Of a stretch of 64,000 nt of DNA, positions 6,136-25,687 are shown in pieces. The notes below the pieces were generated by a model that worked only from the letters and a program-made list of their open reading frames with translations, was not told the origin of the DNA and ran no database searches. Source of the stretch: Candidatus Eiseniibacteriota bacterium. Lineage in GTDB: Bacteria; Eisenbacteria; RBG-16-71-46; SZUA-252. The first letter of the stretch is position 1, and each line of letters starts with the position of its first letter. The translations under genes were made by a program, and so were the position numbers. Location: positions 169,072 to 233,071 of the forward strand of contig VBOZ01000029.1 in assembly GCA_005893305.1 (NCBI GenBank). The letters run 5' to 3'.

Positions 6136-6900
6136 CTAGGCGCCGTACAGCCCGTTCGAGCTGAACGGATACCCCTGGCCGTCGCGGAAGAGCATCCTTT
6201 GGAGCGAGACCTCCCGCGCGCTCGGCTCCACGAGCTGGTCGGGGAAGAGGATCGTCTGTCCGACCTCCACGGCGACGATATCCGTCTTCCCCACACCACA
6301 TAGGTGGCTGCCCCAAGCCTCGCCACCCTCGCCGAACATGCAGCGAATCAGGATTCCGCGGCCGAAGACGAGCTTCCCGCCGATGGTCGTGCACCGCGTG
6401 GAATATCTCCCGTCGGTCGTAATCTCCGCCACGAGCGTGGCGGGCACGCGGACGGATAGCCCGAATTCACGCGGCTCGCCGTCTTCCTGGCGCCCCAGGT
6501 TGCAGGCTTCGGCCAGCGGTGCACCCGAGGAATCGCGTATCTGAATCTGCAGAGGCGAGTGCCGGGTAATTCGAAGCGGCGGAGTCGACGATGCCGCCAC
6601 GAACCATTCACCCGGAGGGATGAGGATGGCCTCGGTCGCGATGCTCCCGCCATCTCGGTTGGCATGCTTCTTGGCAAACGTGAGCATCGCGCTGACCCCC
6701 GGCAGCACGATCGCCCCTTCGAGGGTCAACGTAGAGCCAAGCGGAGCGCCATGACCCGCCTCGCGGATCGAGGCCTGCACCTGAAGCGGCATCGAGACGT
6801 TCGCGGCGATCCGAACCGTCCGGTTGACATCCGGGTCCCGGTGGGGGATCCGGCGAAACGCGGGCGCTATCGACTGAGACATCACGTGGGTTGACATCAT
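6136..6900 (-). CDS. Hypothetical protein B of a duplicated two-gene cassette; paralog of 8043-9002; faint PilZ-like motif arrangement
   Basis: 254-aa ORF lying 9 nt downstream of A. Residues shared with B' include SMP.QVQ, TL.GA.VL, LIPPGEWF, TIGG.LVF.RGIL..CM and IGQT...PDQ. An RRIPHR motif is followed about 37 aa later by TLTLEGAIV. Confidence 0.65.
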   Translation of the reverse strand: MMSTHVMSQSIAPAFRRIPHRDPDVNRTVRIAANVSMPLQVQASIREAGHGAPLGSTLTLEGAIVLPGVSAMLTFAKKHANRDGGSIATEAILIPPGEWFVAASSTPPLRITRHSPLQIQIRDSSGAPLAEACNLGRQEDGEPREFGLSVRVPATLVAEITTDGRYSTRCTTIGGKLVFGRGILIRCMFGEGGEAWGSHLCGVGKTDIVAVEVGQTILFPDQLVEPSAREVSLQRMLFRDGQGYPFSSNGLYGA

Positions 6901-6909
6901 GACTGGCTC

Positions 6910-7752
6910 CTAATGAACGGGATACGCCGGCGCCACGGTGGAAGTGGAAGCCGTGACGCAACCGTTTTGCATCTCGGCGAGGCCCGGCTGCGCCCTTCCC
7001 AGGAGCGACTCGCCTCCCGTGATCTGCCCGATCCCATCCAGGAATGCGAGGTAGATCCAGGAGTCTCGGCCCAGTGGGGACCGAAGCGGCCGCGGGGGAA
7101 GATGAATGATGGTGTCGTCCGGGACGAGCGGCACTTCGACGGCCGCCTCCTGCTGGCCCGCGTCGACTCCCGATGAGTCGCTCGGCGACAGCGTGAGCCG
7201 GGCCCTGATGCCGGACCGGATGGAGACGTCGCCGGACATCGCGAGGTCGGAGATCGGATTCAGATCGAACACCTCGCCCCTGACGACCATCGCGTCGACG
7301 AAGAGGTTGAGTGGAAGAGACGGGTTCAGGTCGAACGGCCCCTGATCGCACCGGCCCAAGCGGGTCCGGGGGGCGAGCGGGGATCCGCCGCCGACGTACT
7401 GGATCCAGAGATCCGGTGGACGCCCCACTTCCGCCCAGTCGAGTGCCTGAGGCTGAATCGACAGGGATCGGTCGTGGAGGAGCGCGATCCGCTCGCTGGA
7501 TGTTTCCTCGAGCGGAAGGGAAGTGCCGCGCTCGACCCTGCGGTAAGTCAGCCGCGCGCCGAATCCACCGGCCTTGATCGTGCCTCCCACCGTCACGCGC
7601 CCGCCCGGTCCGCCGCGGAGCGCGCCCGGGCTCATCGTGGGCTCGATGTGCAGGGCCATGGGGATCGTGACCGGCACGAATCGCATGATCCGCAGTACAG
7701 CTGAACTCGTCACGTCCAAGGGTTGCTCGCGCTGCGTGATCACCCTTGCCAT
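6910..7752 (-). CDS. Hypothetical protein A of the duplicated two-gene cassette; paralog of 9018-9917
   Basis: Start MARVITQ is preceded by AAGGAG. Residues shared with A' include LRIMRF.PVTIP, VGGTI.A.GFGARLTY, SERIALLHDR, GRPPDLWIQ, TRLGRCDQGPFDL and PIGRDSWIY. The track ORF extends to 7995, probably as a read-through artefact. Confidence 0.7.
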   Translation of the reverse strand: MARVITQREQPLDVTSSAVLRIMRFVPVTIPMALHIEPTMSPGALRGGPGGRVTVGGTIKAGGFGARLTYRRVERGTSLPLEETSSERIALLHDRSLSIQPQALDWAEVGRPPDLWIQYVGGGSPLAPRTRLGRCDQGPFDLNPSLPLNLFVDAMVVRGEVFDLNPISDLAMSGDVSIRSGIRARLTLSPSDSSGVDAGQQEAAVEVPLVPDDTIIHLPPRPLRSPLGRDSWIYLAFLDGIGQITGGESLLGRAQPGLAEMQNGCVTASTSTVAPAYPVH

Positions 7753-7843
7753 TGTGTGTCTCCTTTCATCACCTGGCGATTCGGCCGCCAACCGCTCCTC
7801 GTCCCCATACGGAAGGAAGTATCGCCACGGGGAGAAGGAGCCG

Positions 7844-7882
7844 CCATTCGATGGATTGCGGACTTGAGGATGAAAAACTACG
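7844..7882 (-). promoter_or_regulatory. Copy (b) of the conserved intergenic element (CCATTCGATGGATTGCGGACTTGAGGATGAAAAACTACGG) between B' and A
   Basis: About 95-130 nt upstream of the A start codon. The downstream ATACTTCCTTCCGTATGG also matches the sequence around the TPR gene start codon (ATACTTCCTTACGTATGG). Confidence 0.5.
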
Positions 7883-8042
7883 GATGGTTCGGGTTGCGAT
7901 TTGCAAGGAGAACGCGGGCCGAGTTGGCGAATGCGATGAAGATCGCGCCCAAAAGGGGTGAGCGCCGGATGCTTGGTCGCCACTCCCGACGACATGGGTC
8001 ATCCGGCGCTCCGGAAGGCATCCATTTTTTGCGAGTTTCAGA

Positions 8043-9002
8043 TCAAATAGAACCACCTCCTCTCCAAGGTTTCCCGTTCCGAGCACCCGCGCGAGGGACG
8101 AATCGCCCCAGGGGGTGCCCGAGTCCGTCCAAGAAGGAGATCGCGCGCAACGGATGAGCGGGTGTCGTCCTCGACATCGGCTGATCGGGGATGCGAACAG
8201 TCTGGCCGATCGGAATCGCAACGGCTTCGGTGGCGGCGACCAGGGGCTCGTCGTCGTACCGATCCGGCTCGCGCCACGGATACATGCAGTGCGCGAGGAT
8301 GCCGCGGAGAAACACGAGGTTGCCGCCAATGGTGGACCGAGAGCTCGGCACGAGAGACAAGGTGTCTGTCGCGATCTCCACCGTCACCGCCACGGGGACG
8401 TGGAAGGAAAGCGCGAATCCATGCGGCTCTCGGTCACAAGGTCCGACCTCGCAGGTCTCGGAGATGCGGGTGCCGTCCCCGTCGTGGAATCGAATGCGGA
8501 TCGGCGCACCGGGATCGATCGGGGCGCGGCTGGCCGCCGCCGCGACCGTGAACCATTCGCCGGGCGGGATCAGCGTCATCGTGTTCTGTTTGAAGCGGTC
8601 CGCGTTGAAATGACTCTGGTGGGCGTCCCGTCCGAAGCTGAGTACCGCAGCCAGCCCCGCGAGGACGACGGCGCCATCCAGGGTCACCCGGAACCCATGG
8701 GGATCGTGGCATTCCGTGAGGCGGACCGATCCCTGTACCTGTACGGGCATCGAGAGAGCAGCGGAGAAGCGCAGCATCCGAGACCGGTCCGAGCCGGGGT
8801 GAATTCTCTGTCGGTTCGATTCAGGTACGAGTGGGTGCGCCGCGTGCATTCTCTCCATGAGTCCTCCCGTTCCTATCGCGAATGCGTGAGCTCCATCTCT
8901 CGCATCGATCAATCTTCCGTGGCGATGCAGCCGGCGGTTCCGGTCTCGTGGGCGCGTAGCCCCGCTGGGGACACTCGGAGAGCTATAGGTCGGGTCCGCC
9001 AC
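8043..9002 (-). CDS. Hypothetical protein B' (paralog of 6136-6900)
   Basis: Clear paralogy to B. The true start may be the internal MERMHAAHP (about 8858), which has a GGGAGG ribosome-binding site; the longer track ORF begins 15 nt after the A' stop. Confidence 0.6.
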   Translation of the reverse strand: MADPTYSSPSVPSGATRPRDRNRRLHRHGRLIDARDGAHAFAIGTGGLMERMHAAHPLVPESNRQRIHPGSDRSRMLRFSAALSMPVQVQGSVRLTECHDPHGFRVTLDGAVVLAGLAAVLSFGRDAHQSHFNADRFKQNTMTLIPPGEWFTVAAAASRAPIDPGAPIRIRFHDGDGTRISETCEVGPCDREPHGFALSFHVPVAVTVEIATDTLSLVPSSRSTIGGNLVFLRGILAHCMYPWREPDRYDDEPLVAATEAVAIPIGQTVRIPDQPMSRTTPAHPLRAISFLDGLGHPLGRFVPRAGARNGKPWRGGGSI

Positions 9003-9017
9003 ACGGGTTCCTGGACG

Positions 9018-9917
9018 CTAGCGACCGCCACGGTCCAAATGCGTCCTCCTCTCCAGCAGCCCGTCCGGGCTGACCAATGAGCTTTCCACGACGCCGGGCT
9101 CCGCTTTCCCGAGTAACGACTCTCCGCCCGTCGGCCGGCCCGCTCCGTCCAGAAACGTGACGTAGATCCAGGAATCGCGCCCGATCGGCCCGTGCAGCAT
9201 CCGCCGCGGCAGCTGGACCTCGGTGCCGCCTGGAAACAACGACACATCGGCAGGCGTGGTCGGATCGCCCGGCCTCGGGGCCGGACCGCCGTTCTCGGTG
9301 AGGGTGAATCGCGCGACGATTCCGGTCCGGATGCAGATCTCCCCGGCCAGGGCGAGCATCGGCATGGAATAGGGATCGGATCTCTCCGGTCTCAGGATGG
9401 CTGCGTCCACGGAGATTCCCAGGGTGAGGTTTGGGGTCAGGTCGAATGGACCTTGGTCGCAACGGCCCAGGCGGGTGAGGCCCGTGACCGGGGTGCCTCC
9501 GCCGTCGAGGAACTGGATCCAAAGATCCGGAGGACGGCCCGCGACGGGGCGGTCCACGGCTCGCGGCGGGAGCGTCAGGGTCCGGTCGTGAAGGAGAGCA
9601 ATTCGCTCGCTGGTGACCTCATCGGCCGGCGTGGTGCCGCTTCCACGTTGGCGATAGGTAAGCCGGGCGCCGAAGCCTTCGGCCGTGATTGTTCCCCCCA
9701 CCGCGACGCGCACGCCCGGTCGGACGACGAGAGTTCCGGAGTTGACCTTGGGTTCAATGCGCATCGGCACCGGAATCGTGACGGGCATGAATCGCATGAT
9801 CCGAAGGGCGACGACGCCCGAATCCCGCGGGGATCGTCCTCGATGCGTCGAAAATTCATCCATGATGGAACTCCCTTTCCCGGCTGGCGGGCCTCCCCGC
9901 CTATCTTGCGTTTTCAT
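9018..9917 (-). CDS. Hypothetical protein A' (paralog of 6910-7752)
   Basis: 299-aa ORF. Its start overlaps the 3' end of the upstream sugar-transferase gene by about 17 nt, suggesting translational coupling. Confidence 0.7.
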   Translation of the reverse strand: MKTQDRRGGPPAGKGSSIMDEFSTHRGRSPRDSGVVALRIMRFMPVTIPVPMRIEPKVNSGTLVVRPGVRVAVGGTITAEGFGARLTYRQRGSGTTPADEVTSERIALLHDRTLTLPPRAVDRPVAGRPPDLWIQFLDGGGTPVTGLTRLGRCDQGPFDLTPNLTLGISVDAAILRPERSDPYSMPMLALAGEICIRTGIVARFTLTENGGPAPRPGDPTTPADVSLFPGGTEVQLPRRMLHGPIGRDSWIYVTFLDGAGRPTGGESLLGKAEPGVVESSLVSPDGLLERRTHLDRGGR

Positions 9918-10644: not shown

Positions 10645-11372
10645 CAGCGCACCTCCGATGCGCGGAGCGCGCGCAGAAGCGTCCGCTCCAACGCGGGGTT
10701 GCCCAATCGCTGCGCGAGCGAGATGCCCAACGCGAGCGTCCGCGTGTCATCAGGCCGGAGCTCCATGGCGAGCTGAAACGCTGAGTACGCTTCGCCGAGT
10801 CGGCCGTCCTCCAGCGCCATGCCCAGGATCCCCGTCGCGATCCACTCGAAGTCGGGCAGGAGCGATCCGGTGCGCTTGAGGTCGGCCAGGGCCGCTCCGT
10901 AGTTCCGATCCAGCTCATGGGCGAGCGCGCGCAACGCATAGAGCTCGGGCGCGGCTCCCGACCGTCGGAGCGGCGGCGTCAGCGCCGCCGCGGCGCGGGC
11001 CGGATCTCCAACCAAGCAGCTCACTCGACCCACCAGCATGGCCGCCTCGGAGTTCAAGCTGTCGACGGCGAGCGCCCGCTGCCCCCAGTCCAGCGCCGCC
11101 GAGTCGTCACCGAAGTTCTCGTACAGAGAGGCGACTCGAGACAACGCGTAGCTCGAGTGGGGATCCAGCGTGACGAGGGACACGGCCCAGGCGATCGCCT
11201 TCAAGCCATCGCCTTTCGCCGCCGCCAGCTCGGAGCGGACCTGACACTCGATCGGGGTCGGAGGATCTGCCGCCGACGAGGACGCGCCGGCGGCGATGGC
11301 CGTGGCCACGAGGGCCGGCACCATGGCCGCTTTCCATCCACCGTTGAAGCTTTGTTTGCGCCCGGTATCCAT
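10644..11372 (-). CDS. Secreted tetratricopeptide-repeat (TPR) protein
   Basis: Signal peptide AAMVPALVATAIAAGASSSAAD followed by TPR-like helical repeats (A..Y...G....A......AL). Confidence 0.7.
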   Translation of the reverse strand: MDTGRKQSFNGGWKAAMVPALVATAIAAGASSSAADPPTPIECQVRSELAAAKGDGLKAIAWAVSLVTLDPHSSYALSRVASLYENFGDDSAALDWGQRALAVDSLNSEAAMLVGRVSCLVGDPARAAAALTPPLRRSGAAPELYALRALAHELDRNYGAALADLKRTGSLLPDFEWIATGILGMALEDGRLGEAYSAFQLAMELRPDDTRTLALGISLAQRLGNPALERTLLRALRASEVR

Positions 11373-11407
11373 ACGTAAGGAAGTATTGCGGCAGATGCGT
11401 CGCGCCC

Positions 11408-11447
11408 ACCATTCGGTGGACTACGGCCCGGGATAGGAAAAACTACC
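11408..11447 (-). promoter_or_regulatory. Copy (c) of the conserved intergenic element (CCATTCGGTGGACTACGGCCCGGGATAGGAAAAACTACC) between the response-regulator stop and the TPR start
   Basis: About 40-75 nt upstream of the TPR ATG. Contains a CCACC-ATTC-GGTGG hairpin. Confidence 0.5.
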
Positions 11448-11509: not shown

Positions 11510-12142
11510 CTAGGGGATGATGAGGCCCCTTCGTATCGCGTAGCGGACCAACCCGGCGGTCTCGTGGATGTCGAGCTTCTCCATGATATGAGCCCGGTGT
11601 GCCTCGACGGTCCGCGCGCTGATATCGAGCGCTACGCCGATCTCCTTGGACGACCGGCCCTCCGTGATGAGCTGCAGCACCTCGCGCTCCCGCGGGGTCA
11701 AGGGGTCGTCCGGCAAATCGACCTTGGAGATGCAGGCCTCTACGACCGCCTTGGAAATGCCGGGGCTCAGATAGACCGAGCCCTGGGCGACCTCGCGGAT
11801 GGCCTGCACTAGGTGCGCGGTCGCCTGCGTCTTGAGGAGGTACCCGCGGGCGCCGGCCCGAAGCGCCTCGATGACGTAGGGGTCCTCCGTGTGCATCGTG
11901 AGGACGATCACGCGCGTCTCGGGCGAGCACTGAAGGACGCTTCGCGTCGTCTCGAGCCCGTTCAGCTGAGGCATGCCCAGGTCCAGCACCGCGATGTCGG
12001 GCTTCAACTCCTTGGCCAGGCGGACGGCCTCGCGGCCGTCCGGAGCGGATCCGACGACCTTGAAGCCTTCCGCGTTGAGAAGTGTGGCCAGGCCGTCCCG
12101 GATCACGGCGTGGTCATCGGCCAAAAGGACGCTCTCACGCAC
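11510..12142 (-). CDS. NarL/LuxR-family response regulator (REC + HTH_LuxR)
   Basis: Receiver motifs LLADDH...D (phospho-acceptor Asp in DIAVLDLGMP) and a C-terminal LTPREREVL.L...G.S.KEIG..L.IS..TVE.H LuxR helix-turn-helix. Start overlaps the histidine-kinase stop. Confidence 0.9.
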   Translation of the reverse strand: MRESVLLADDHAVIRDGLATLLNAEGFKVVGSAPDGREAVRLAKELKPDIAVLDLGMPQLNGLETTRSVLQCSPETRVIVLTMHTEDPYVIEALRAGARGYLLKTQATAHLVQAIREVAQGSVYLSPGISKAVVEACISKVDLPDDPLTPREREVLQLITEGRSSKEIGVALDISARTVEAHRAHIMEKLDIHETAGLVRYAIRRGLIIP

Positions 12143-13073
12143 GGATCGTCTCCAGCGGGATCGTCACCAGGAGCTCCGTTCCCTTGCGCTCGCCGGATTG
12201 GATCTCCAGTGTCCCCGAGAGCGGAGCGATCCGCTCGCGAATTCCAATCAATCCCAGACCGCGGCCCCCTTGACGCGTGCCCTTGGCCGCGGGGGGAAGC
12301 CCCACCCCGTCGTCGCGGATCGAGCATCGAACCAGGCCGTCCTCGTGCAGCAGCGTGATCGTGACGCGAGAGGCCTGGGCGTGCCGGGCCGCGTTGTTCA
12401 GCGCTTCCTGGACGATCCGATAGAGCGTCGTCTCGACGACCGGCGGCAGCCGTTCCTCGGTCGAGCCCTTGACGATGACGGCAATCCCCGCGCGCCGGGA
12501 AACTCCGTCCCCCAGGAACTGGATCGCGGGGACGAGGCCCAGGTCGTCGAGGATCAGCGGGCGGAGCTCGTGCGAAATCCGGCGGAGCTGCTCCTCGATC
12601 CGATCCAGAAGGCCGCGCACGTCTTTGAGCCGCTGCCTCGACGAAGGAGCGAGGTCGCGGCCGACCTCGTGGAGGGCGAGGTGAACCGAGGCCAGAAGCT
12701 GCCCGGCGTCGTCGTGGAGCTCGCGCGCGATCCGCTGCACCTGCTCCTCGAGGATCTCATTGATCCGTCGAAGCGCCGAGTTGGCGTCGCTTACCCCGCG
12801 ATGGGCCATCTCGAACGGCGAGAACGACTCCCGCGCGAAGCCCTCCGCGGCGCGGAGGATTGCCCCGAACTTCTCGGGAATGCCCGCCTCCTGGCAGACG
12901 GCGAGGAGCGCGGCGTGCTGGAGCGCGGCCATCTCGAGCGCGCCGACTCCGGAAGCGAGCGCCTCTCGGCCCAGCTCGTACGCCGCGTTGAGGGACGCTT
13001 CGCCTCCGCCGGCGACATGCCCGCGGAGTGCGGCCGCGTACCGCGATTCGAATGCAGGCGTGCCGTTATTCAT
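12135..13073 (-). CDS. Cytoplasmic sensor histidine kinase (HisKA_3 + HATPase_c) with an RsbU_N-like N-terminal domain
   Basis: H-box ELHDDAGQLL and an ATPase region with N, G1 and G2 boxes. The N-terminal ~100 aa (AAYELGREALASGVGALEMAALQHAALLAV) resembles the RsbT-binding N-domain of RsbU. ATGA overlap with the upstream phosphatase gene. Confidence 0.8.
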   Translation of the reverse strand: MNNGTPAFESRYAAALRGHVAGGGEASLNAAYELGREALASGVGALEMAALQHAALLAVCQEAGIPEKFGAILRAAEGFARESFSPFEMAHRGVSDANSALRRINEILEEQVQRIARELHDDAGQLLASVHLALHEVGRDLAPSSRQRLKDVRGLLDRIEEQLRRISHELRPLILDDLGLVPAIQFLGDGVSRRAGIAVIVKGSTEERLPPVVETTLYRIVQEALNNAARHAQASRVTITLLHEDGLVRCSIRDDGVGLPPAAKGTRQGGRGLGLIGIRERIAPLSGTLEIQSGERKGTELLVTIPLETIRA

Positions 13074-13687
13074 CGTCCGGGCTCCGTGAAGGATGCTACC
13101 ACCACGAGCGCGTCGTCCGACTTCTTACCGTGGCGGGCCAGGATGAGGTCGGCGATGTGCTTTGGCGGCGCGCCGGGCGAGATCAGCTTCGTGAATCCGT
13201 GGGAGATTCCGTCGGTGGTGAAGACCAGGGTGTCTCCTTGCCCGATCGGCAGCACGGTGCCGCTCAGCGCCGGCAGCCGGCTCCCGACCACGCCGGCGCG
13301 ATTCACCAGCCCCTCCGACCGGGGCCGGAAGGTCGGATCCCCGCGGAAGAGGGTGCCCTCCACGTTCCCGACGCCGGACCAGGACAGGAAGCCTTCCGAC
13401 GGTCGAATCGACGCGACGCTCACGGCCGCGCCCCGCGTGCTCCGGAGCGCGTCGTGGCACATGCGCAAGAGCGAGATCGGTCGCTCCCCGGCGTGCTTCG
13501 CCAAGAGCTTCGCTGCGACCGCCACGGCGGCGCCCGCCTCGCGTCCATGGCCGGCACCATCCAGAACCGCGATCATGATTCCGTCCGCGAACGGTTGGAC
13601 GACGCAAAGATCCCCCGACTCCGCGGCGTCGTTCAGCGGGCGGTGCGCGACGGCCCACTTCATTGAGAGCGCTGTCACGGTTTCCAT
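13070..13687 (-). CDS. PP2C/SpoIIE-family serine phosphatase (RsbX-like feedback phosphatase)
   Basis: Carries the SpoIIE/PP2C signature D.GHG (VLDGAGHG...VFTTDGI). At 205 aa it has only a catalytic domain, like RsbX. Confidence 0.8.
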   Translation of the reverse strand: METVTALSMKWAVAHRPLNDAAESGDLCVVQPFADGIMIAVLDGAGHGREAGAAVAVAAKLLAKHAGERPISLLRMCHDALRSTRGAAVSVASIRPSEGFLSWSGVGNVEGTLFRGDPTFRPRSEGLVNRAGVVGSRLPALSGTVLPIGQGDTLVFTTDGISHGFTKLISPGAPPKHIADLILARHGKKSDDALVVVASFTEPGR

Positions 13688-14121
13688 TTTTTTGCCGTTA
13701 CCGTGGTGCCGACGCCAAGCTGGGAGACGATCTCCATCTCGTCCATGAGCCGCTTGACTCCGGGCAACCCCAAGCCCAATCGCCCTGCGGTGGAATATCC
13801 GTCCTGGAGGGCCTGGCGGACGTCCGCAATTCCCGCTCCTTCGTCCTTGGCCACGACGGTCAGGCCGCGCTTCCCGTTCAGCTCGATCGGGATCAGCCGG
13901 ATCTCGCCCCGCTTCGCGTACGTCACGATGTTCCGGGCGAGCTCGGAAATGGCCGTGGCGATCAGGGTCGCGTCTCCGGGCGAGAAGCCGATCCCCAAGG
14001 CGAGCTCGCGACCCTTTTGGCGAGCGGCGACGATGTCAGCTTCGGTTACGAGCGGCACGCCCTGCTCCGGCGACCCCGATGGGGCGGATGAATTGTTGTC
14101 CGAACTCGCCGATGTGCTCAT
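13675..14121 (-). CDS. RsbT/RsbW-like serine kinase (GHKL ATPase, anti-sigma regulatory factor fold)
   Basis: Contains TAISELARNIV, DEGAGI and GLGLPGVKRLMDEM. ATGA overlap with the upstream STAS gene. Confidence 0.8.
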   Translation of the reverse strand: MSTSASSDNNSSAPSGSPEQGVPLVTEADIVAARQKGRELALGIGFSPGDATLIATAISELARNIVTYAKRGEIRLIPIELNGKRGLTVVAKDEGAGIADVRQALQDGYSTAGRLGLGLPGVKRLMDEMEIVSQLGVGTTVTAKKWKP

Positions 14122-14486
14122 CGCTTCGCCGGCGGCTTGGTGTTCGCGTCGAGATAGGCAAGACCTTCCTCCAGATCGAGCGTGGTCGCGACAGCTCCGA
14201 GGGTCAGGCCCATCTGGACCATCGCCATGGCGACCTCGGGTTGGATTCCGACGATGACCGTCTTGGCGCCCCGCAGGCTGATCATCCGGGAGATATCACC
14301 CAGCACGCGGGTGCCGAAGGAGTCCATGACGTCGAGTGCCGCGACGTCCACGATGACCCCCTGGGAGCGGTGCTGGCCGACGGACTTCATCAAGACGTCG
14401 CGGAAATGGAGCAGGTCCGTGTCCGAGAGCGCCGCCTGGATCGAGGCGATCAGGTAGGCGCCCTGCTTCAGAATCGGGACTTCCAC
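14118..14486 (-). CDS. STAS-domain protein (RsbS-like anti-sigma-factor antagonist)
   Basis: 122-aa STAS fold with the conserved phosphorylatable Ser/Thr region (VDVAALDVMDSFG). Confidence 0.8.
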   Translation of the reverse strand: MEVPILKQGAYLIASIQAALSDTDLLHFRDVLMKSVGQHRSQGVIVDVAALDVMDSFGTRVLGDISRMISLRGAKTVIVGIQPEVAMAMVQMGLTLGAVATTLDLEEGLAYLDANTKPPAKR

Positions 14487-14527
14487 AGATGCGATCCTTT
14501 GATTTAGGTCGAGTGGTGCCGCGTCCC

Positions 14528-15421
14528 CTAGGCGGCTTCGGATTCCCTCATGGGAAGGACCTTGTACCCGAGGAGACGCTCGGCCTCCTCGATGCCTCCC
14601 TGAAGATCTCCCACCGTCGTCATCTTGCCGAGATCCACGCCGATGTTGACGAGGGTCTGAGCGATCTCCGGCGAGAGACCGGTCACGATGACGGTCGCGC
14701 CGAGGAGTCGCGCCGACTCGACGGTCAGAACCAGGTGATTCGCGACGTTGGCGTCCATGGCCGCGACGCCGGTGATGTCGATCACGACGACCTTGGCTCG
14801 GTTCGTCCGGATGCCCCGCAGAAGCTGCTCGGTGAGCTGGCGCGCCCGCGCCGGATCGATGAGGCCGATGATCGGAAGAATCAGCAACCGCTCGCGGACC
14901 TGCAGAACGGGCGTGGACAGCTCTCGAATGGCCTCCTGCTGCTCGCGGATGACGCGCTCCCGCTCCTGCACGAAACCGACGGCCACCGTGATCGCGATGC
15001 GGTTCGCGGCCGGCTCATAGGCGTCGAGGATGCGATTCAGCGGGGCGAAGTCGGCGTGGTACTTGGCGAACAGCGATCGCGCCAAGACGTCGCGCAGGAG
15101 AAGCACGATGCCGACGACCTCGTGCGTTTCCACTCCTCGCGGGATGATCCGTTCCGAGAGGTTTCGCGCGTAAGCTTGAAGAGCTTCAAGGGTTCCCGTC
15201 TCCAGGGCGAGGACGTAGCTATCGTAGACGGAGGTCGCTTCCGCGAAGATCTCCTCTTTCGTCATCGCGGTCAGGAGCTCGGCGACGCTGATCCGCCGTA
15301 CCCATTCCTCGCGAAGCTTCGTGCGGTTCTGTCTCAAATGTGAGACGAGCTCGCGCAGGAGCGCGGGATTCTCGTCCTGAGTCGGGGGAGCGAAGGTGAC
15401 TTTGACAGCGCTGTCCGTCAT
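14528..15421 (-). CDS. RsbR-like stressosome sensor (N-terminal non-haem globin-like sensor domain + C-terminal STAS)
   Basis: 297 aa. The C-terminal STAS region (VVVIDITGVAAMDANVANHLV...ATVIVTGLSPEIAQTL) matches RsbR-family proteins. It is the first gene of the translationally coupled Rsb-like operon. Confidence 0.75.
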   Translation of the reverse strand: MTDSAVKVTFAPPTQDENPALLRELVSHLRQNRTKLREEWVRRISVAELLTAMTKEEIFAEATSVYDSYVLALETGTLEALQAYARNLSERIIPRGVETHEVVGIVLLLRDVLARSLFAKYHADFAPLNRILDAYEPAANRIAITVAVGFVQERERVIREQQEAIRELSTPVLQVRERLLILPIIGLIDPARARQLTEQLLRGIRTNRAKVVVIDITGVAAMDANVANHLVLTVESARLLGATVIVTGLSPEIAQTLVNIGVDLGKMTTVGDLQGGIEEAERLLGYKVLPMRESEAA

Positions 15422-15690
15422 GAGATCCTCCTCCTAATGTGTTGCACGATTCAGACGCACTCATGGCGACCGGAACGCCCCACGCGCATCCGCATGTATT
15501 ATTTTAATATGAGCATCGGCCGGGCCTGCAATTAGATAATCGTAAAAACACTGATACGTGATGGGACAGTTTCGGGGCCGCGAATCGCATCTCTCGACCC
15601 ACTCCGCAGATACGCGAAAATGTAGTTGTTTGGCCTACAAGCGCGAGGCGGAGATTTGCGCGGTGACGGACATTTCACGGAGGTGACACG

Positions 15691-16116
15691 ATGATTCGCA
15701 AGGGATCCGCCGAGTGGCAGGGGAGCCTCAAGGAGGGGAAGGGGACCGTTTCGACGGAGAGCGGCGTGCTCGCGAACGCGGCCTATTCGTTCGGGACTCG
15801 ATTCGAGAACGGGAAGGGGACGAACCCGGAGGAGATGATCGCGGCGGCGCACGCCAGCTGCTTCTCGATGGCGCTCTCGGCGCAGCTCGGCGCTGCCGGG
15901 ATCACCCCGGAAACCGTGCGCACCACGGCGGCGGTCACCCTCGAGAAGGTCGAGGGTGGATTTGCGGTGACCGCTTCCCACCTCGACGTGACCGCCAAGA
16001 TCCCGGGCGCGGATCGCGCGGCCTTCGAGAAGGCGGCCAACGAGGCGAAGACGGGCTGTCCGATCTCGAAGCTTCTCAACGCCAAGATTACGATGGACGC
16101 GAAGCTCGTGGCGTAG
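15691..16116 (+). CDS. OsmC/Ohr-family peroxiredoxin
   Basis: 141 aa with OsmC motifs (AAAHASCFSMAL ... TGCPISK) and the two conserved Cys. Confidence 0.85.
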   Translation: MIRKGSAEWQGSLKEGKGTVSTESGVLANAAYSFGTRFENGKGTNPEEMIAAAHASCFSMALSAQLGAAGITPETVRTTAAVTLEKVEGGFAVTASHLDVTAKIPGADRAAFEKAANEAKTGCPISKLLNAKITMDAKLVA

Positions 16117-23382: not shown

Positions 23383-25635
<2,253 letters not shown>

Positions 25636-25687
25636 GGCGCGAGTATATCTCAACGCGGCGGCGGCCAGCCCGCCGCGGCCCTAAGCC

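What the first reader, a model, noticed from the sequence alone, without database searches (positions are those of the whole stretch)
11510..15421. Complete stressosome module (RsbR/RsbS/RsbT plus a PP2C phosphatase) translationally coupled to an RsbU_N-domain histidine kinase and a LuxR-family response regulator
Six consecutive genes have ATGA or overlapping junctions. The histidine kinase has no transmembrane segments, and its N-terminal ~100 aa resemble the RsbT-binding N-domain of RsbU. The stressosome output kinase therefore probably activates a two-component system directly, instead of going through sigma-B partner switching. The response regulator sits next to the element-bearing TPR/sugar-transferase/A'B'/AB operon, which gives a testable pathway: stress signal, stressosome, histidine kinase, LuxR regulator, surface/glycan regulon. 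Stressosome-TCS wiring is documented in a few lineages but is not common.
Basis: partly seen in the sequence, partly recalled or inferred. Interest (0 to 1): 0.6.

Follow-up and report, generated by a model that had tools for sequence, protein, structure and literature searches.

The report
Stressosome operon wired to two-component system
Six co-transcribed genes in a soil bacterium (probably Candidatus Eisenbacteria) encode a stress-sensing "stressosome" followed by a soluble histidine kinase carrying the docking domain for the stressosome's kinase, plus its DNA-binding partner; this wiring is already published and turns out to be common in soil bacteria, so it is a solid but ordinary find.

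Summary
Window 11510-15421 (minus strand) encodes RsbR, RsbS, RsbT, an RsbX-type PP2C phosphatase, a soluble HisKA_3 histidine kinase and a REC+LuxR/GerE response regulator. Four of the five junctions overlap; RsbR>RsbS is a 41-nt spacer.

The kinase's N-terminal ~95 residues belong to the RsbU_N family. The window's own sequence scores just below Pfam's cut-off. All of its relatives match, some well above the cut-off, and a profile built from them finds B. subtilis RsbU N-domain as the best solved structure.

The same six-gene order recurs in about 20 genomes from eight phyla. Catalytic and phospho-acceptor residues are invariant. No sigma factor, anti-sigma kinase or extra STAS gene lies in the 64 kb.

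The most likely mechanism is that RsbT, released from the stressosome, docks on the RsbU_N dimer, orders the helix that runs into the His120 helix and switches the kinase, which then phosphorylates Asp54 of the regulator. This is inferred, not shown.

The architecture is already published (Heinz 2022; Baral 2025) and is abundant in soil metagenomes. A local "glycan regulon" has only weak, lineage-restricted support.

Two side observations: RsbR is about 80-90% identical across phyla despite saturated synonymous sites, and it lacks both canonical phospho-threonines.

The parts
14528..15421 (-). RsbR-type co-antagonist and sensor: N-terminal RsbR/RsbRD_N-like helical sensor domain, linker helix and C-terminal STAS domain. 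AGGAGG Shine-Dalgarno 7 nt upstream.
   Evidence: Pfam gives STAS 1.4e-14 and RsbRD_N 0.005. It aligns over its full length with Listeria RsbR (9O3Z, 7B0U), E 7.6e-34, residues 23-287. The positions equal to Lm T175 and T209 are Pro190 and Ala224. It is 73-90% identical to orthologues in eight phyla.
14118..14486 (-). RsbS-type single-STAS scaffold protein. The phospho-acceptor Ser56 is the codon at 14319-14321.
   Evidence: Pfam STAS 3e-13. Matches Listeria and Bacillus RsbS (6QCM, 6JHK) at E about 1e-24. Ser56 aligns with Lm S56 (Bs S59) and is conserved in 22 of 22 orthologues.
13675..14121 (-). RsbT-type GHKL serine/threonine switch kinase. ATGA overlap with rsbS.
   Evidence: Pfam HATPase_c_2 7e-13. 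It belongs to the anti-sigma-kinase class (SpoIIAB, 1.5e-6). E60, N64, D93, G95 and G97 are invariant in 24 of 24 orthologues. It always lies between RsbS and the PP2C.
13070..13687 (-). RsbX-type single-domain PP2C feedback phosphatase. 13-nt overlap with rsbT.
   Evidence: Pfam SpoIIE 2.2e-10. The best solved relatives are the Moorella stressosome phosphatase MtX (3ZT9, 6e-14) and B. subtilis RsbX (3W40, 2.7e-6). D26, D43, D159, D191 and D192 are invariant in 25 of 25 orthologues.
12789..13073 (-). RsbU_N-type N-terminal domain of the kinase (about residues 1-95), the presumed RsbT docking and dimerisation module.
12135..13073 (-). Soluble histidine kinase: RsbU_N, continuous helix, HisKA_3 DHp domain (His120, codon 12714-12716), HATPase_c. 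ATGA overlap with the PP2C gene.
   Evidence: Pfam HisKA_3 and HATPase_c. Similar to DesK by sequence (4e-11) and by fold. AlphaFold2 helix 66-138 runs unbroken from the N-domain into the H-box. H120 is conserved in 27 of 27 orthologues. No transmembrane segment.
11510..12142 (-). NarL/LuxR-family response regulator (REC + GerE helix-turn-helix). Asp54 is the codon at 11981-11983. 8-nt overlap with the kinase gene.
   Evidence: Pfam Response_reg 2.7e-30 and GerE 1.1e-20. D9, D10, D54, T82 and K104 are conserved. It follows the kinase in 20 or more loci.

Best explanation
This is one operon encoding a minimal stressosome and its output.

Components:
- RsbR and RsbS form the STAS-domain scaffold.
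- RsbT is the sequestered serine kinase.
- An RsbX-type PP2C phosphatase resets the system.
- The output is a cytoplasmic two-component system instead of sigma-B partner switching.

Proposed sequence of events:
1. At rest, RsbT is held on the RsbR/RsbS core.
2. A signal sensed by the RsbR N-domain lets RsbT phosphorylate RsbS Ser56 and dissociate.
3. Free RsbT docks on the dimeric RsbU_N domain of the kinase.
4. By analogy with RsbT activating RsbU, docking orders the helix that continues without a break into the HisKA_3 DHp helix carrying His120. This shifts the kinase/phosphatase balance.
5. Phosphoryl transfer to Asp54 of the LuxR-type regulator changes transcription.
6. The PP2C dephosphorylates RsbS-P and RsbT is recaptured.

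Shown here: gene identities, domain architecture, conserved catalytic residues and conserved synteny. Inferred: complex formation, RsbT-kinase binding, the sign of the effect and the regulon.
For: - Domain assignments for all six proteins.
- RsbU_N membership of the kinase N-domain at family level.
- In the AlphaFold2 model, N-domain helix 4 is continuous with the H-box helix, residues 66-138.
- The six-gene order and its tight junctions are conserved in about 20 loci from Eisenbacteria, Acidobacteriota, Methylomirabilota/NC10, Nitrospirota, Verrucomicrobiota, Planctomycetota, Gammaproteobacteria and Bacteroidota.
- These residues are invariant: RsbS Ser56, the RsbT N- and G-box residues, the PP2C metal-binding aspartates, kinase His120 and regulator Asp54.
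- HK residues 1-112 contain no invariant Ser or Thr, which argues for binding rather than phosphorylation.
- No rival output (STAS, anti-sigma kinase or sigma factor) lies in the 64 kb.
- Literature: RsbT activates RsbU by binding the N-domain and rigidifying the linker. The same authors model an RsbU-N-domain "NreB" kinase from a stressosome operon as a coiled-coil dimer (PMC12143880). RSTX modules with RsbU_N-bearing downstream signalling proteins are described in PMC9237108.
Against: - No experiment on any member of this kinase family was found, so everything after gene identity is inference.
- The window protein's own Pfam RsbU_N score is below the gathering threshold and covers only profile positions 2-53 of 75.
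- In Vibrio vulnificus, two-hybrid tests failed to show RsbT binding to the downstream two-component protein, although that protein lacks RsbU_N (PMC9237108).
- RsbR lacks both canonical phospho-threonines, so the Bacillus activation logic cannot be transferred unchanged.
- Two of about 21 loci with enough upstream sequence (L016, L025) have the kinase and regulator without RsbRST beside them.
Confidence: 0.7

Rival explanations
1. RsbT acts on the kinase (or on the regulator) as an enzyme. It phosphorylates a Ser or Thr rather than activating by stoichiometric binding, as was reported for the Moorella RsbT homologue and its diguanylate cyclase.
For: - The RsbT catalytic residues are invariant.
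- The Moorella case is summarised as phosphorylation of the downstream cyclase in PMC4976288.
- Heinz et al. propose transient phosphorylation for downstream kinases that lack RsbU_N.
- Ser85 in the conserved SPFEMA motif is Ser or Thr in 88% of 64 homologues.
Against: - No Ser or Thr is invariant in HK residues 1-112.
- RsbT's kinase activity is needed anyway for RsbS Ser56, so its conservation is not diagnostic.
- The RsbU precedent is activation by binding (PMC12143880).
Confidence: 0.12
2. The components and contacts are the same but the sign is opposite. RsbT binding pushes the HisKA_3 kinase into its phosphatase state, so stress switches the regulon off or relieves repression.
For: HisKA_3 kinases such as DesK are bifunctional kinase/phosphatases switched by the conformation of the helix entering the DHp domain. 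DesK is the closest solved relative. Nothing in the sequence fixes the sign.
Against: The only studied RsbU_N proteins (RsbU and MtG) are described as activated by RsbT.
Confidence: 0.12
3. The kinase and regulator are merely neighbours of the stressosome genes. The real stressosome output is elsewhere, for example an unlinked partner-switching sigma or anti-sigma module.
For: Only 64 kb of the genome could be inspected. L016 and L025 show that the kinase-regulator pair can exist without adjacent RsbRST.
Against: - The RsbU_N domain is present on the kinase.
- Synteny with overlapping junctions is conserved across eight phyla.
- The window holds no STAS, anti-sigma kinase or sigma genes elsewhere.
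Confidence: 0.04

Closest known systems
RsbU-N-domain histidine kinases in stressosome operons. Examples: the "NreB" kinase MBI3545564.1 from a gammaproteobacterial MAG (Baral et al., eLife 2025, PMC12143880, Fig. 5E), and the RSTX downstream modules of Heinz et al. 2022 (PMC9237108, Fig. 3).
   Same: Same architecture class: an rsbRSTX module followed by a kinase whose N-terminus is an RsbU_N domain joined to the DHp domain by a long helix. UniRef names the window protein "Oxygen sensor...", that is NreB-like. The published status is also the same: predicted, not tested biochemically.
   Different: The window copy comes from Candidatus Eisenbacteria. Its RsbR is of the RsbRA/RsbRD type and is not a haem globin.
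Bacillus subtilis / Listeria monocytogenes stressosome: RsbR-RsbS-RsbT -> RsbU -> RsbV/RsbW -> sigma-B, with RsbX
   Same: RsbR aligns over its full length with Listeria RsbR (E 7.6e-34). RsbS matches at about 1e-24 with the phospho-Ser conserved. The phosphatase is RsbX-like. The target carries an RsbU_N docking domain.
   Different: - The effector domain is a HisKA_3 kinase, not a PP2C.
- The window holds no RsbV, RsbW or sigma-B.
- rsbX directly follows rsbT.
- RsbR lacks the T171 and T205 equivalents, which are Pro and Ala.
- There is a single RsbR with no paralogues nearby.
Vibrio vulnificus / V. brasiliensis stressosome (RsbRSTX + D1/D2 two-component proteins)
   Same: A four-gene RSTX module followed by two-component signalling proteins and no sigma-B (PMC9237108).
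   Different: - Vibrio RsbR has a haem-globin O2 sensor. The window RsbR matches Vibrio RsbR only in the STAS part (7O0I, residues 155-289).
- No RsbU_N was detected in VvD1, and no RsbT-D1 interaction was found.
- Vibrio RsbR keeps Ser/Thr at both phospho-sites.
Moorella thermoacetica MtR-MtS-MtT-MtX-MtG
   Same: RSTX order, with an RsbU_N-bearing effector encoded next. The window PP2C's best solved relative is MtX (3ZT9).
   Different: The Moorella effector is RsbU_N-GAF-GGDEF (a c-di-GMP output), not a histidine kinase with a regulator.
DesK-DesR and other HisKA_3/NarL-family two-component systems
   Same: The DHp H-box (E-L-H-D), the HATPase_c domain and the REC+GerE partner are shared. 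DesK is the best match by both sequence and fold.
   Different: The window kinase has no membrane sensor. Its input is a cytoplasmic RsbU_N domain. It falls below the cut-off of every named NCBIfam equivalog, for example MctS at 152 bits against 700.

Membership tests
Stressosome RsbR-RsbS-RsbT(-RsbX) module | RsbR: a variable N-terminal sensor domain joined by a linker helix to a C-terminal STAS domain | tested here: met
   Pfam STAS covers residues 171-263. There is a full-length alignment to Listeria RsbR, residues 23-287, E 7.6e-34.
Stressosome RsbR-RsbS-RsbT(-RsbX) module | RsbS: a single STAS domain with the conserved phosphorylatable serine (Bs S59 / Lm S56) | tested here: met
   Ser56 aligns with Lm S56, whose position is identified from the S56A variant 9O4R. 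It is conserved in 22 of 22 orthologues.
Stressosome RsbR-RsbS-RsbT(-RsbX) module | RsbT: a small GHKL-type serine kinase encoded directly after rsbS, with intact ATP-binding motifs | tested here: met
   Pfam HATPase_c_2 7e-13. E60, N64, D93, G95 and G97 are invariant. The gene position is conserved. No RsbT-specific reference model was available, and NCBIfam gives only sub-threshold SpoIIAB/RsbW hits.
Stressosome RsbR-RsbS-RsbT(-RsbX) module | RsbX-type single-domain PP2C feedback phosphatase | tested here: met
   The protein is 205 aa and consists of a SpoIIE domain only. Best solved relatives are MtX (3ZT9, 6e-14) and RsbX (3W40, 2.7e-6). Five aspartates are invariant.
Stressosome RsbR-RsbS-RsbT(-RsbX) module | RsbR phospho-threonines equivalent to Bs T171 and T205 (Lm T175 and T209) | tested here: not met
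   The equivalents are Pro190 (Pro in 21 of 21 orthologues) and Ala224 (Ala 8, Ser 8, Val 5). This is a modulatory feature, not one required for assembly.
Stressosome RsbR-RsbS-RsbT(-RsbX) module | Assembly of RsbR and RsbS into a megadalton pseudo-icosahedral core that sequesters RsbT | not testable with these tools
   This needs co-expression with cryo-EM or size-exclusion chromatography. Only single-chain prediction was available.
RsbU_N domain (Pfam PF08673) | Profile match at or above Pfam's gathering score (25.5 bits) | tested here: inconclusive
   The window sequence scores 20.2 bits (full protein) and 22.8 bits (domain alone), covering profile positions 2-53 of 75. Relatives at 32-78% identity all match: 13 of 13, best 1.9e-12. 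Ten of ten longer relatives score 30-44 bits. Most of the top 120 homologues carry PF08673.
RsbU_N domain (Pfam PF08673) | Homology to the solved RsbU N-terminal domain | tested here: met
   The four best hits of the family profile among 177,635 PDB sequences are all RsbU N-domain entries (2J70, 2J6Z, 1W53, 2J6Y), E 0.003-0.07. hhalign gives E 5.8e-5, probability 66%, 77 columns.
RsbU_N domain (Pfam PF08673) | Four-helix N-terminal domain followed by a long helical linker into the effector domain | tested here: met
RsbU_N domain (Pfam PF08673) | Binds RsbT | not testable with these tools
   This needs a pull-down, ITC or a multimer structure prediction.
HisKA_3 / NarL-LuxR two-component system | HisKA_3 DHp domain with the H-box histidine, a HATPase_c domain with N and G boxes, and a partner with REC (Asp pocket) plus a GerE helix-turn-helix | tested here: met
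   Pfam domain matches. H120 aligns with DesK H188 and is conserved in 27 of 27 orthologues. The regulator's D9, D10, D54, T82 and K104 are conserved. The fold matches DesK.
Sigma-B partner-switching output (RsbU-RsbV-RsbW-SigB) | Adjacent genes for an anti-anti-sigma STAS protein, an anti-sigma kinase and a sigma factor | tested here: not met
   HMMs built from the operon's STAS, RsbT and PP2C orthologues find no other copy among the window's ORFs. Pfam scans of 30 window proteins, nine of them the operon genes and their two downstream neighbours, show no sigma factor or partner-switch domain outside the six operon genes. About a dozen larger window ORFs (571-1,375 aa) were not scanned with Pfam.

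The most novel reading that the evidence does not exclude
This operon may represent a very large, unstudied "soil-type" stressosome clade with three distinctive properties.

- Its RsbR, including the sensor domain, is under ribosomal-protein-like constraint: 79-89% amino-acid identity across eight phyla, with saturated synonymous sites.
- Its RsbR has lost both regulatory phospho-threonines.
- Its only output is an RsbU_N histidine kinase.

That pattern would suggest that the RsbR N-domain reads a universal intracellular cue or docks on a universally conserved partner, and that phosphorylation of RsbS alone gates release of RsbT.
Probability: 0.3. Interest if true: 0.55.

Novelty: new member of a known kind. 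Interest (0 to 1): 0.3.

Why it matters
What stressosomes sense, and how they signal outside the Firmicutes, are open questions. This family offers an unusually clean system for testing whether RsbT controls a histidine kinase through an RsbU_N domain. That idea is currently only a published prediction.

- The system is compact, with six genes.
- All six predicted proteins lack a transmembrane segment.
- It has a single RsbR.
- It has one conserved phospho-site (RsbS Ser56).
- Its output is a standard kinase-regulator pair that can be read by phosphotransfer assays.

The family is abundant in uncultured soil phyla, so the result would apply widely. For genome annotation, the kinase should be labelled as a stressosome-output kinase. 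At present NCBI calls it a hypothetical protein and UniRef calls it an oxygen sensor.

Tried and rejected
- The first related-loci run, with the 13-sequence N-domain alignment, failed because no stretch was conserved enough. I repeated it with five closer sequences.
- With the full-length model, Foldseek returns only DesK-like kinases.
- The terminator and promoter scan found nothing on the operon strand. RNA folding of the RR-TPR spacer is no better than shuffled sequence. I therefore could not decide whether the TPR/sugar-transferase genes are co-transcribed with the operon.
- The idea that the repeated element downstream of the RR is a conserved RR box could not be supported by comparison. 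Its palindrome occurs only in contigs of this same organism, not in the 27 related loci.
- A conserved downstream regulon is rejected at cross-phylum level, because the neighbours differ by lineage. The NAD-GH hit in L015 falls on an ORF that was not checked for being a real gene, so I gave it no weight.
- Recent horizontal transfer as the explanation for RsbR's high identity is rejected. Third-codon-position identity is 35-55%, as for the other genes.
- OsmC, the divergent neighbour, is not conserved next to the operon in any related locus.

Full report
**What is there**

| Gene | Coordinates | Length | Pfam result |
|---|---|---|---|
| RsbR-like | 14528-15421 | 297 aa | C-terminal STAS 1.4e-14; weak RsbRD_N |
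| RsbS-like | 14118-14486 | 122 aa | STAS 3e-13 |
| RsbT-like | 13675-14121 | 148 aa | HATPase_c_2 7e-13 |
| PP2C | 13070-13687 | 205 aa | SpoIIE 2.2e-10 |
| Histidine kinase (HK) | 12135-13073 | 312 aa | HisKA_3 3.7e-9; HATPase_c 2.4e-17; RsbU_N 6.6e-4 (20.2 bits, cut-off 25.5) |
| Response regulator (RR) | 11510-12142 | 210 aa | Response_reg 2.7e-30; GerE 1.1e-20 |

Reading the sequence gives the junctions:
- RsbS>RsbT and PP2C>HK are ATGA overlaps.
- RsbT>PP2C overlaps by 13 nt.
- HK>RR overlaps by 8 nt (GTGCGTGA).
- RsbR>RsbS is a 41-nt spacer with its own ribosome-binding site.

So four of five junctions overlap, not all five. The kinase has no hydrophobic segment.

**Source**

Identical proteins occur on soil-metagenome contigs. 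In NCBI the kinase is a hypothetical protein of a Candidatus Eisenbacteria MAG (E6K79_09475). The closest named N-domain fragment also comes from Eisenbacteria.

**Identity of the stressosome parts**

- RsbR aligns over residues 23-287 with Listeria RsbR from solved stressosomes (E 7.6e-34).
- RsbS matches Listeria and Bacillus RsbS at about 1e-24. Its Ser56 aligns with the phospho-serine, whose position is fixed by the S56A variant in the PDB.
- The PP2C's best solved relatives are the two known stressosome feedback phosphatases: Moorella MtX (3ZT9, 6e-14) and B. subtilis RsbX (3W40, 2.7e-6).
- RsbT belongs to the anti-sigma-kinase GHKL class.

Across orthologues the following are invariant or nearly so: RsbS Ser56; RsbT E60, N64, D93, G95 and G97; five PP2C aspartates; kinase His120; and regulator D9, D10, D54, T82 and K104.

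One departure from the Bacillus and Listeria paradigm stands out. The RsbR positions equal to T171/T205 (Lm T175/T209) are Pro190 (Pro in 21 of 21) and Ala224 (Ala, Ser or Val). Vibrio RsbR, by contrast, keeps Ser/Thr at both positions (PMC9237108).

**Is the kinase N-domain RsbU_N?**

On its own the window sequence is sub-threshold, at 20-23 bits. At family level the answer is yes.
- A search with residues 1-105 returned 12 relatives, most pre-annotated PF08673.
- All 13 aligned sequences hit RsbU_N, the best at 1.9e-12.
- A profile of them searched against all PDB sequences gives the RsbU N-domain entries 2J70, 2J6Z, 1W53 and 2J6Y as its four best hits (E 0.003-0.07).
- hhalign against the B. 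subtilis domain gives E 5.8e-5 over 77 columns.
- Most of the 120 best full-length homologues (at least 53% identical) carry PF08673.
- Ten longer relatives all pass the Pfam cut-off, at 30-44 bits.

AlphaFold2 models the domain as four helices at pLDDT 92. In the full-length protein the fourth helix (residues 66-138) runs without a break into the DHp helix that carries His120.

**Comparative genomics**

A scan of one genome per GTDB species found 27 related loci. The phyla are Eisenbacteria, Acidobacteriota, Methylomirabilota/NC10, Nitrospirota, Verrucomicrobiota, Planctomycetota, Gammaproteobacteria and Bacteroidota.

About 20 of these loci have the same RsbR-RsbS-RsbT-PP2C-HK-RR order. Junction geometry is conserved too:
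- The RsbR>RsbS spacer is 8-41 nt in 21 of 21.
- The 13-nt RsbT>PP2C overlap occurs in 19 of 21.
- PP2C>HK and HK>RR mostly overlap.

Variants also exist:
- Nitrospirota and Bacteroidota kinases carry a PAS insert between RsbU_N and HisKA_3.
- L016 and L025 have the kinase and regulator without adjacent RsbRST.
- L031 and L032 have an orphan RsbT next to RsbU_N proteins.

An exhaustive profile search of 1.84 billion cluster representatives found 2,629 clusters (50% identity) at E<=1e-3 for this N-domain subfamily, and 1,671 at E<=1e-10. Effector domains include HisKA_3 kinases, classic HisKA kinases, PAS/GAF kinases and a GAF-PAS-SpoIIE phosphatase. The wiring is therefore common in environmental bacteria, not rare.

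**Other outputs**

HMMs built from the operon's orthologues find no second STAS, RsbT-like, PP2C, HisKA_3 or NarL-type gene in the 64 kb. Pfam scans of 30 window proteins show housekeeping, transport, peptidase, Ser/Thr kinase and glycosyltransferase genes, and no sigma factor. The remainder of the genome could not be examined.

**Mechanism**

The best-supported model follows the RsbT-RsbU paradigm. In that system, binding of RsbT to the N-domain and linker rigidifies a coiled coil and dimerises the effector (PMC12143880). Here that helix is the entry helix of a HisKA_3 DHp domain, and HisKA_3 is the class of kinase (DesK) that is switched by the conformation of that helix.

The absence of an invariant Ser or Thr in HK residues 1-112 favours binding over phosphorylation. 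The direction of the effect (kinase-on or phosphatase-on) cannot be read from sequence. With RsbR lacking phospho-threonines, RsbS Ser56 is the only conserved RsbT substrate and so the likely target of the PP2C.

**The proposed link to a surface/glycan regulon**

In the window the regulator is followed by a TPR protein, a Bac_transf sugar transferase and four unknown proteins. Relatives of the transferase or of the unknown proteins follow the regulator in three other Eisenbacteria loci (L007, L012, L017). A Bac_transf gene lies 2-3 kb downstream in two Acidobacteriota loci.

Elsewhere the neighbours differ. They are a GGDEF protein in a gammaproteobacterium, giant Ig-like/Laminin_G proteins in Nitrospirota, and a hybrid kinase in L016.

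A roughly 90-nt element is shared by the spacers upstream of the TPR gene and of the second unknown-protein pair. It occurs only in this organism. It is a reasonable candidate for an RR site, and nothing more than that.

**Comparison with the literature**

RSTX modules with varied downstream signalling modules are described by Heinz et al. 2022, who build on Pane-Farre et al. 2005; some of those modules carry RsbU_N and some are kinase/receiver phosphorelays. Baral et al. [quoted passage not shown] They show an AlphaFold2 dimer of such an "NreB" kinase.

I found no biochemical test of RsbT acting on a kinase, and no description of the soil clade.

**Verdict**

The kind of system is already known, so this is a new, unstudied member of it.

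The most interesting residue is the RsbR protein itself. It is 79-89% identical across phyla (sensor domain 74-89%) while third codon positions are saturated at 35-55% identity, like the rest of the operon. The kinase and PP2C are only 33-55% identical.

Noticed in passing
window 14528-15421 (RsbR), compared with L007-L033: RsbR is 73-90% amino-acid identical to orthologues in eight phyla, and its N-terminal sensor domain is 74-89% identical. RsbS is 61-70%, RsbT 47-61%, and PP2C and HK 32-54%. Third-codon-position identity is only 35-55% for all of these genes. This points to extreme purifying selection on a sensor protein, not recent transfer.
   Followed up: partly
window 14528-15421: codons for Pro190 and Ala224: Both canonical RsbR phosphorylation sites (Bs T171/T205, Lm T175/T209) are absent. 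The first is Pro in 21 of 21 orthologues and the second is Ala, Ser or Val. RsbS Ser56 is invariant. RsbT may therefore have RsbS as its only scaffold substrate in this clade.
   Followed up: partly
window 6136-9863 (minus strand): 9018-9863, 8043-8858, 6910-7752, 6136-6900: Four consecutive proteins of 254-281 aa have no Pfam match (two of them were scanned here; none has a precomputed Pfam hit). They form two paralogue pairs: 9018-9863 with 6910-7752 (E 1e-82), and 8043-8858 with 6136-6900 (E 1e-43). All four are distantly related to one another. Homologues follow the regulator in Eisenbacteria loci L007, L017 and L012.
   Followed up: partly
window 11358-11446 and 7794-7881: A roughly 90-nt intergenic element occurs twice, upstream of the TPR/sugar-transferase genes and upstream of the gene at 6910-7752. 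Its conserved blocks, read on the minus strand, are GTAGTTTTTC, the palindrome CCAYCGAATGGYGG, and ATACTTCCTTMCGTATGG. Zero copies are expected by chance. It was found only in contigs of this same organism. It is a candidate promoter or regulator site, possibly for the adjacent LuxR-type regulator.
   Followed up: partly
L026, L028, L030 (Nitrospirota), L033 (Bacteroidota); proteins P0063, P0084, P0099: These are variants of the same operon in which the kinase carries a PAS domain of about 120-150 aa between RsbU_N and HisKA_3. That would add a second input to the stressosome signal.
   Followed up: partly
L031:5377-7978 and L032:6266-7327: RsbT homologues lie next to RsbU_N proteins with no RsbR, RsbS or PP2C nearby. 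They include stand-alone RsbU_N ORFs of about 100-170 aa (L031:7670-7978, L032:6809-7327), and a Bac_transf gene lies 2-3 kb downstream. This may be a stripped-down or trans-acting version of the system.
   Followed up: no
L016 and L025: The RsbU_N-type kinase and its regulator are present, but no RsbR, RsbS or RsbT gene lies in the 7 kb upstream. L016 keeps only the PP2C. The kinase family is therefore not strictly linked in cis to the stressosome genes.
   Followed up: no
window 15691-16116 (+) and 15422-15690: An OsmC-family peroxiredoxin-like gene is transcribed divergently from rsbR across a 269-nt spacer. This neighbour is not conserved in any related locus.
   Followed up: yes
window 23383-25653 (-): A 756-aa Hanks-type Ser/Thr protein kinase fused to TPR repeats lies 8 kb from the operon. 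It is unrelated to the stressosome genes by sequence.
   Followed up: no
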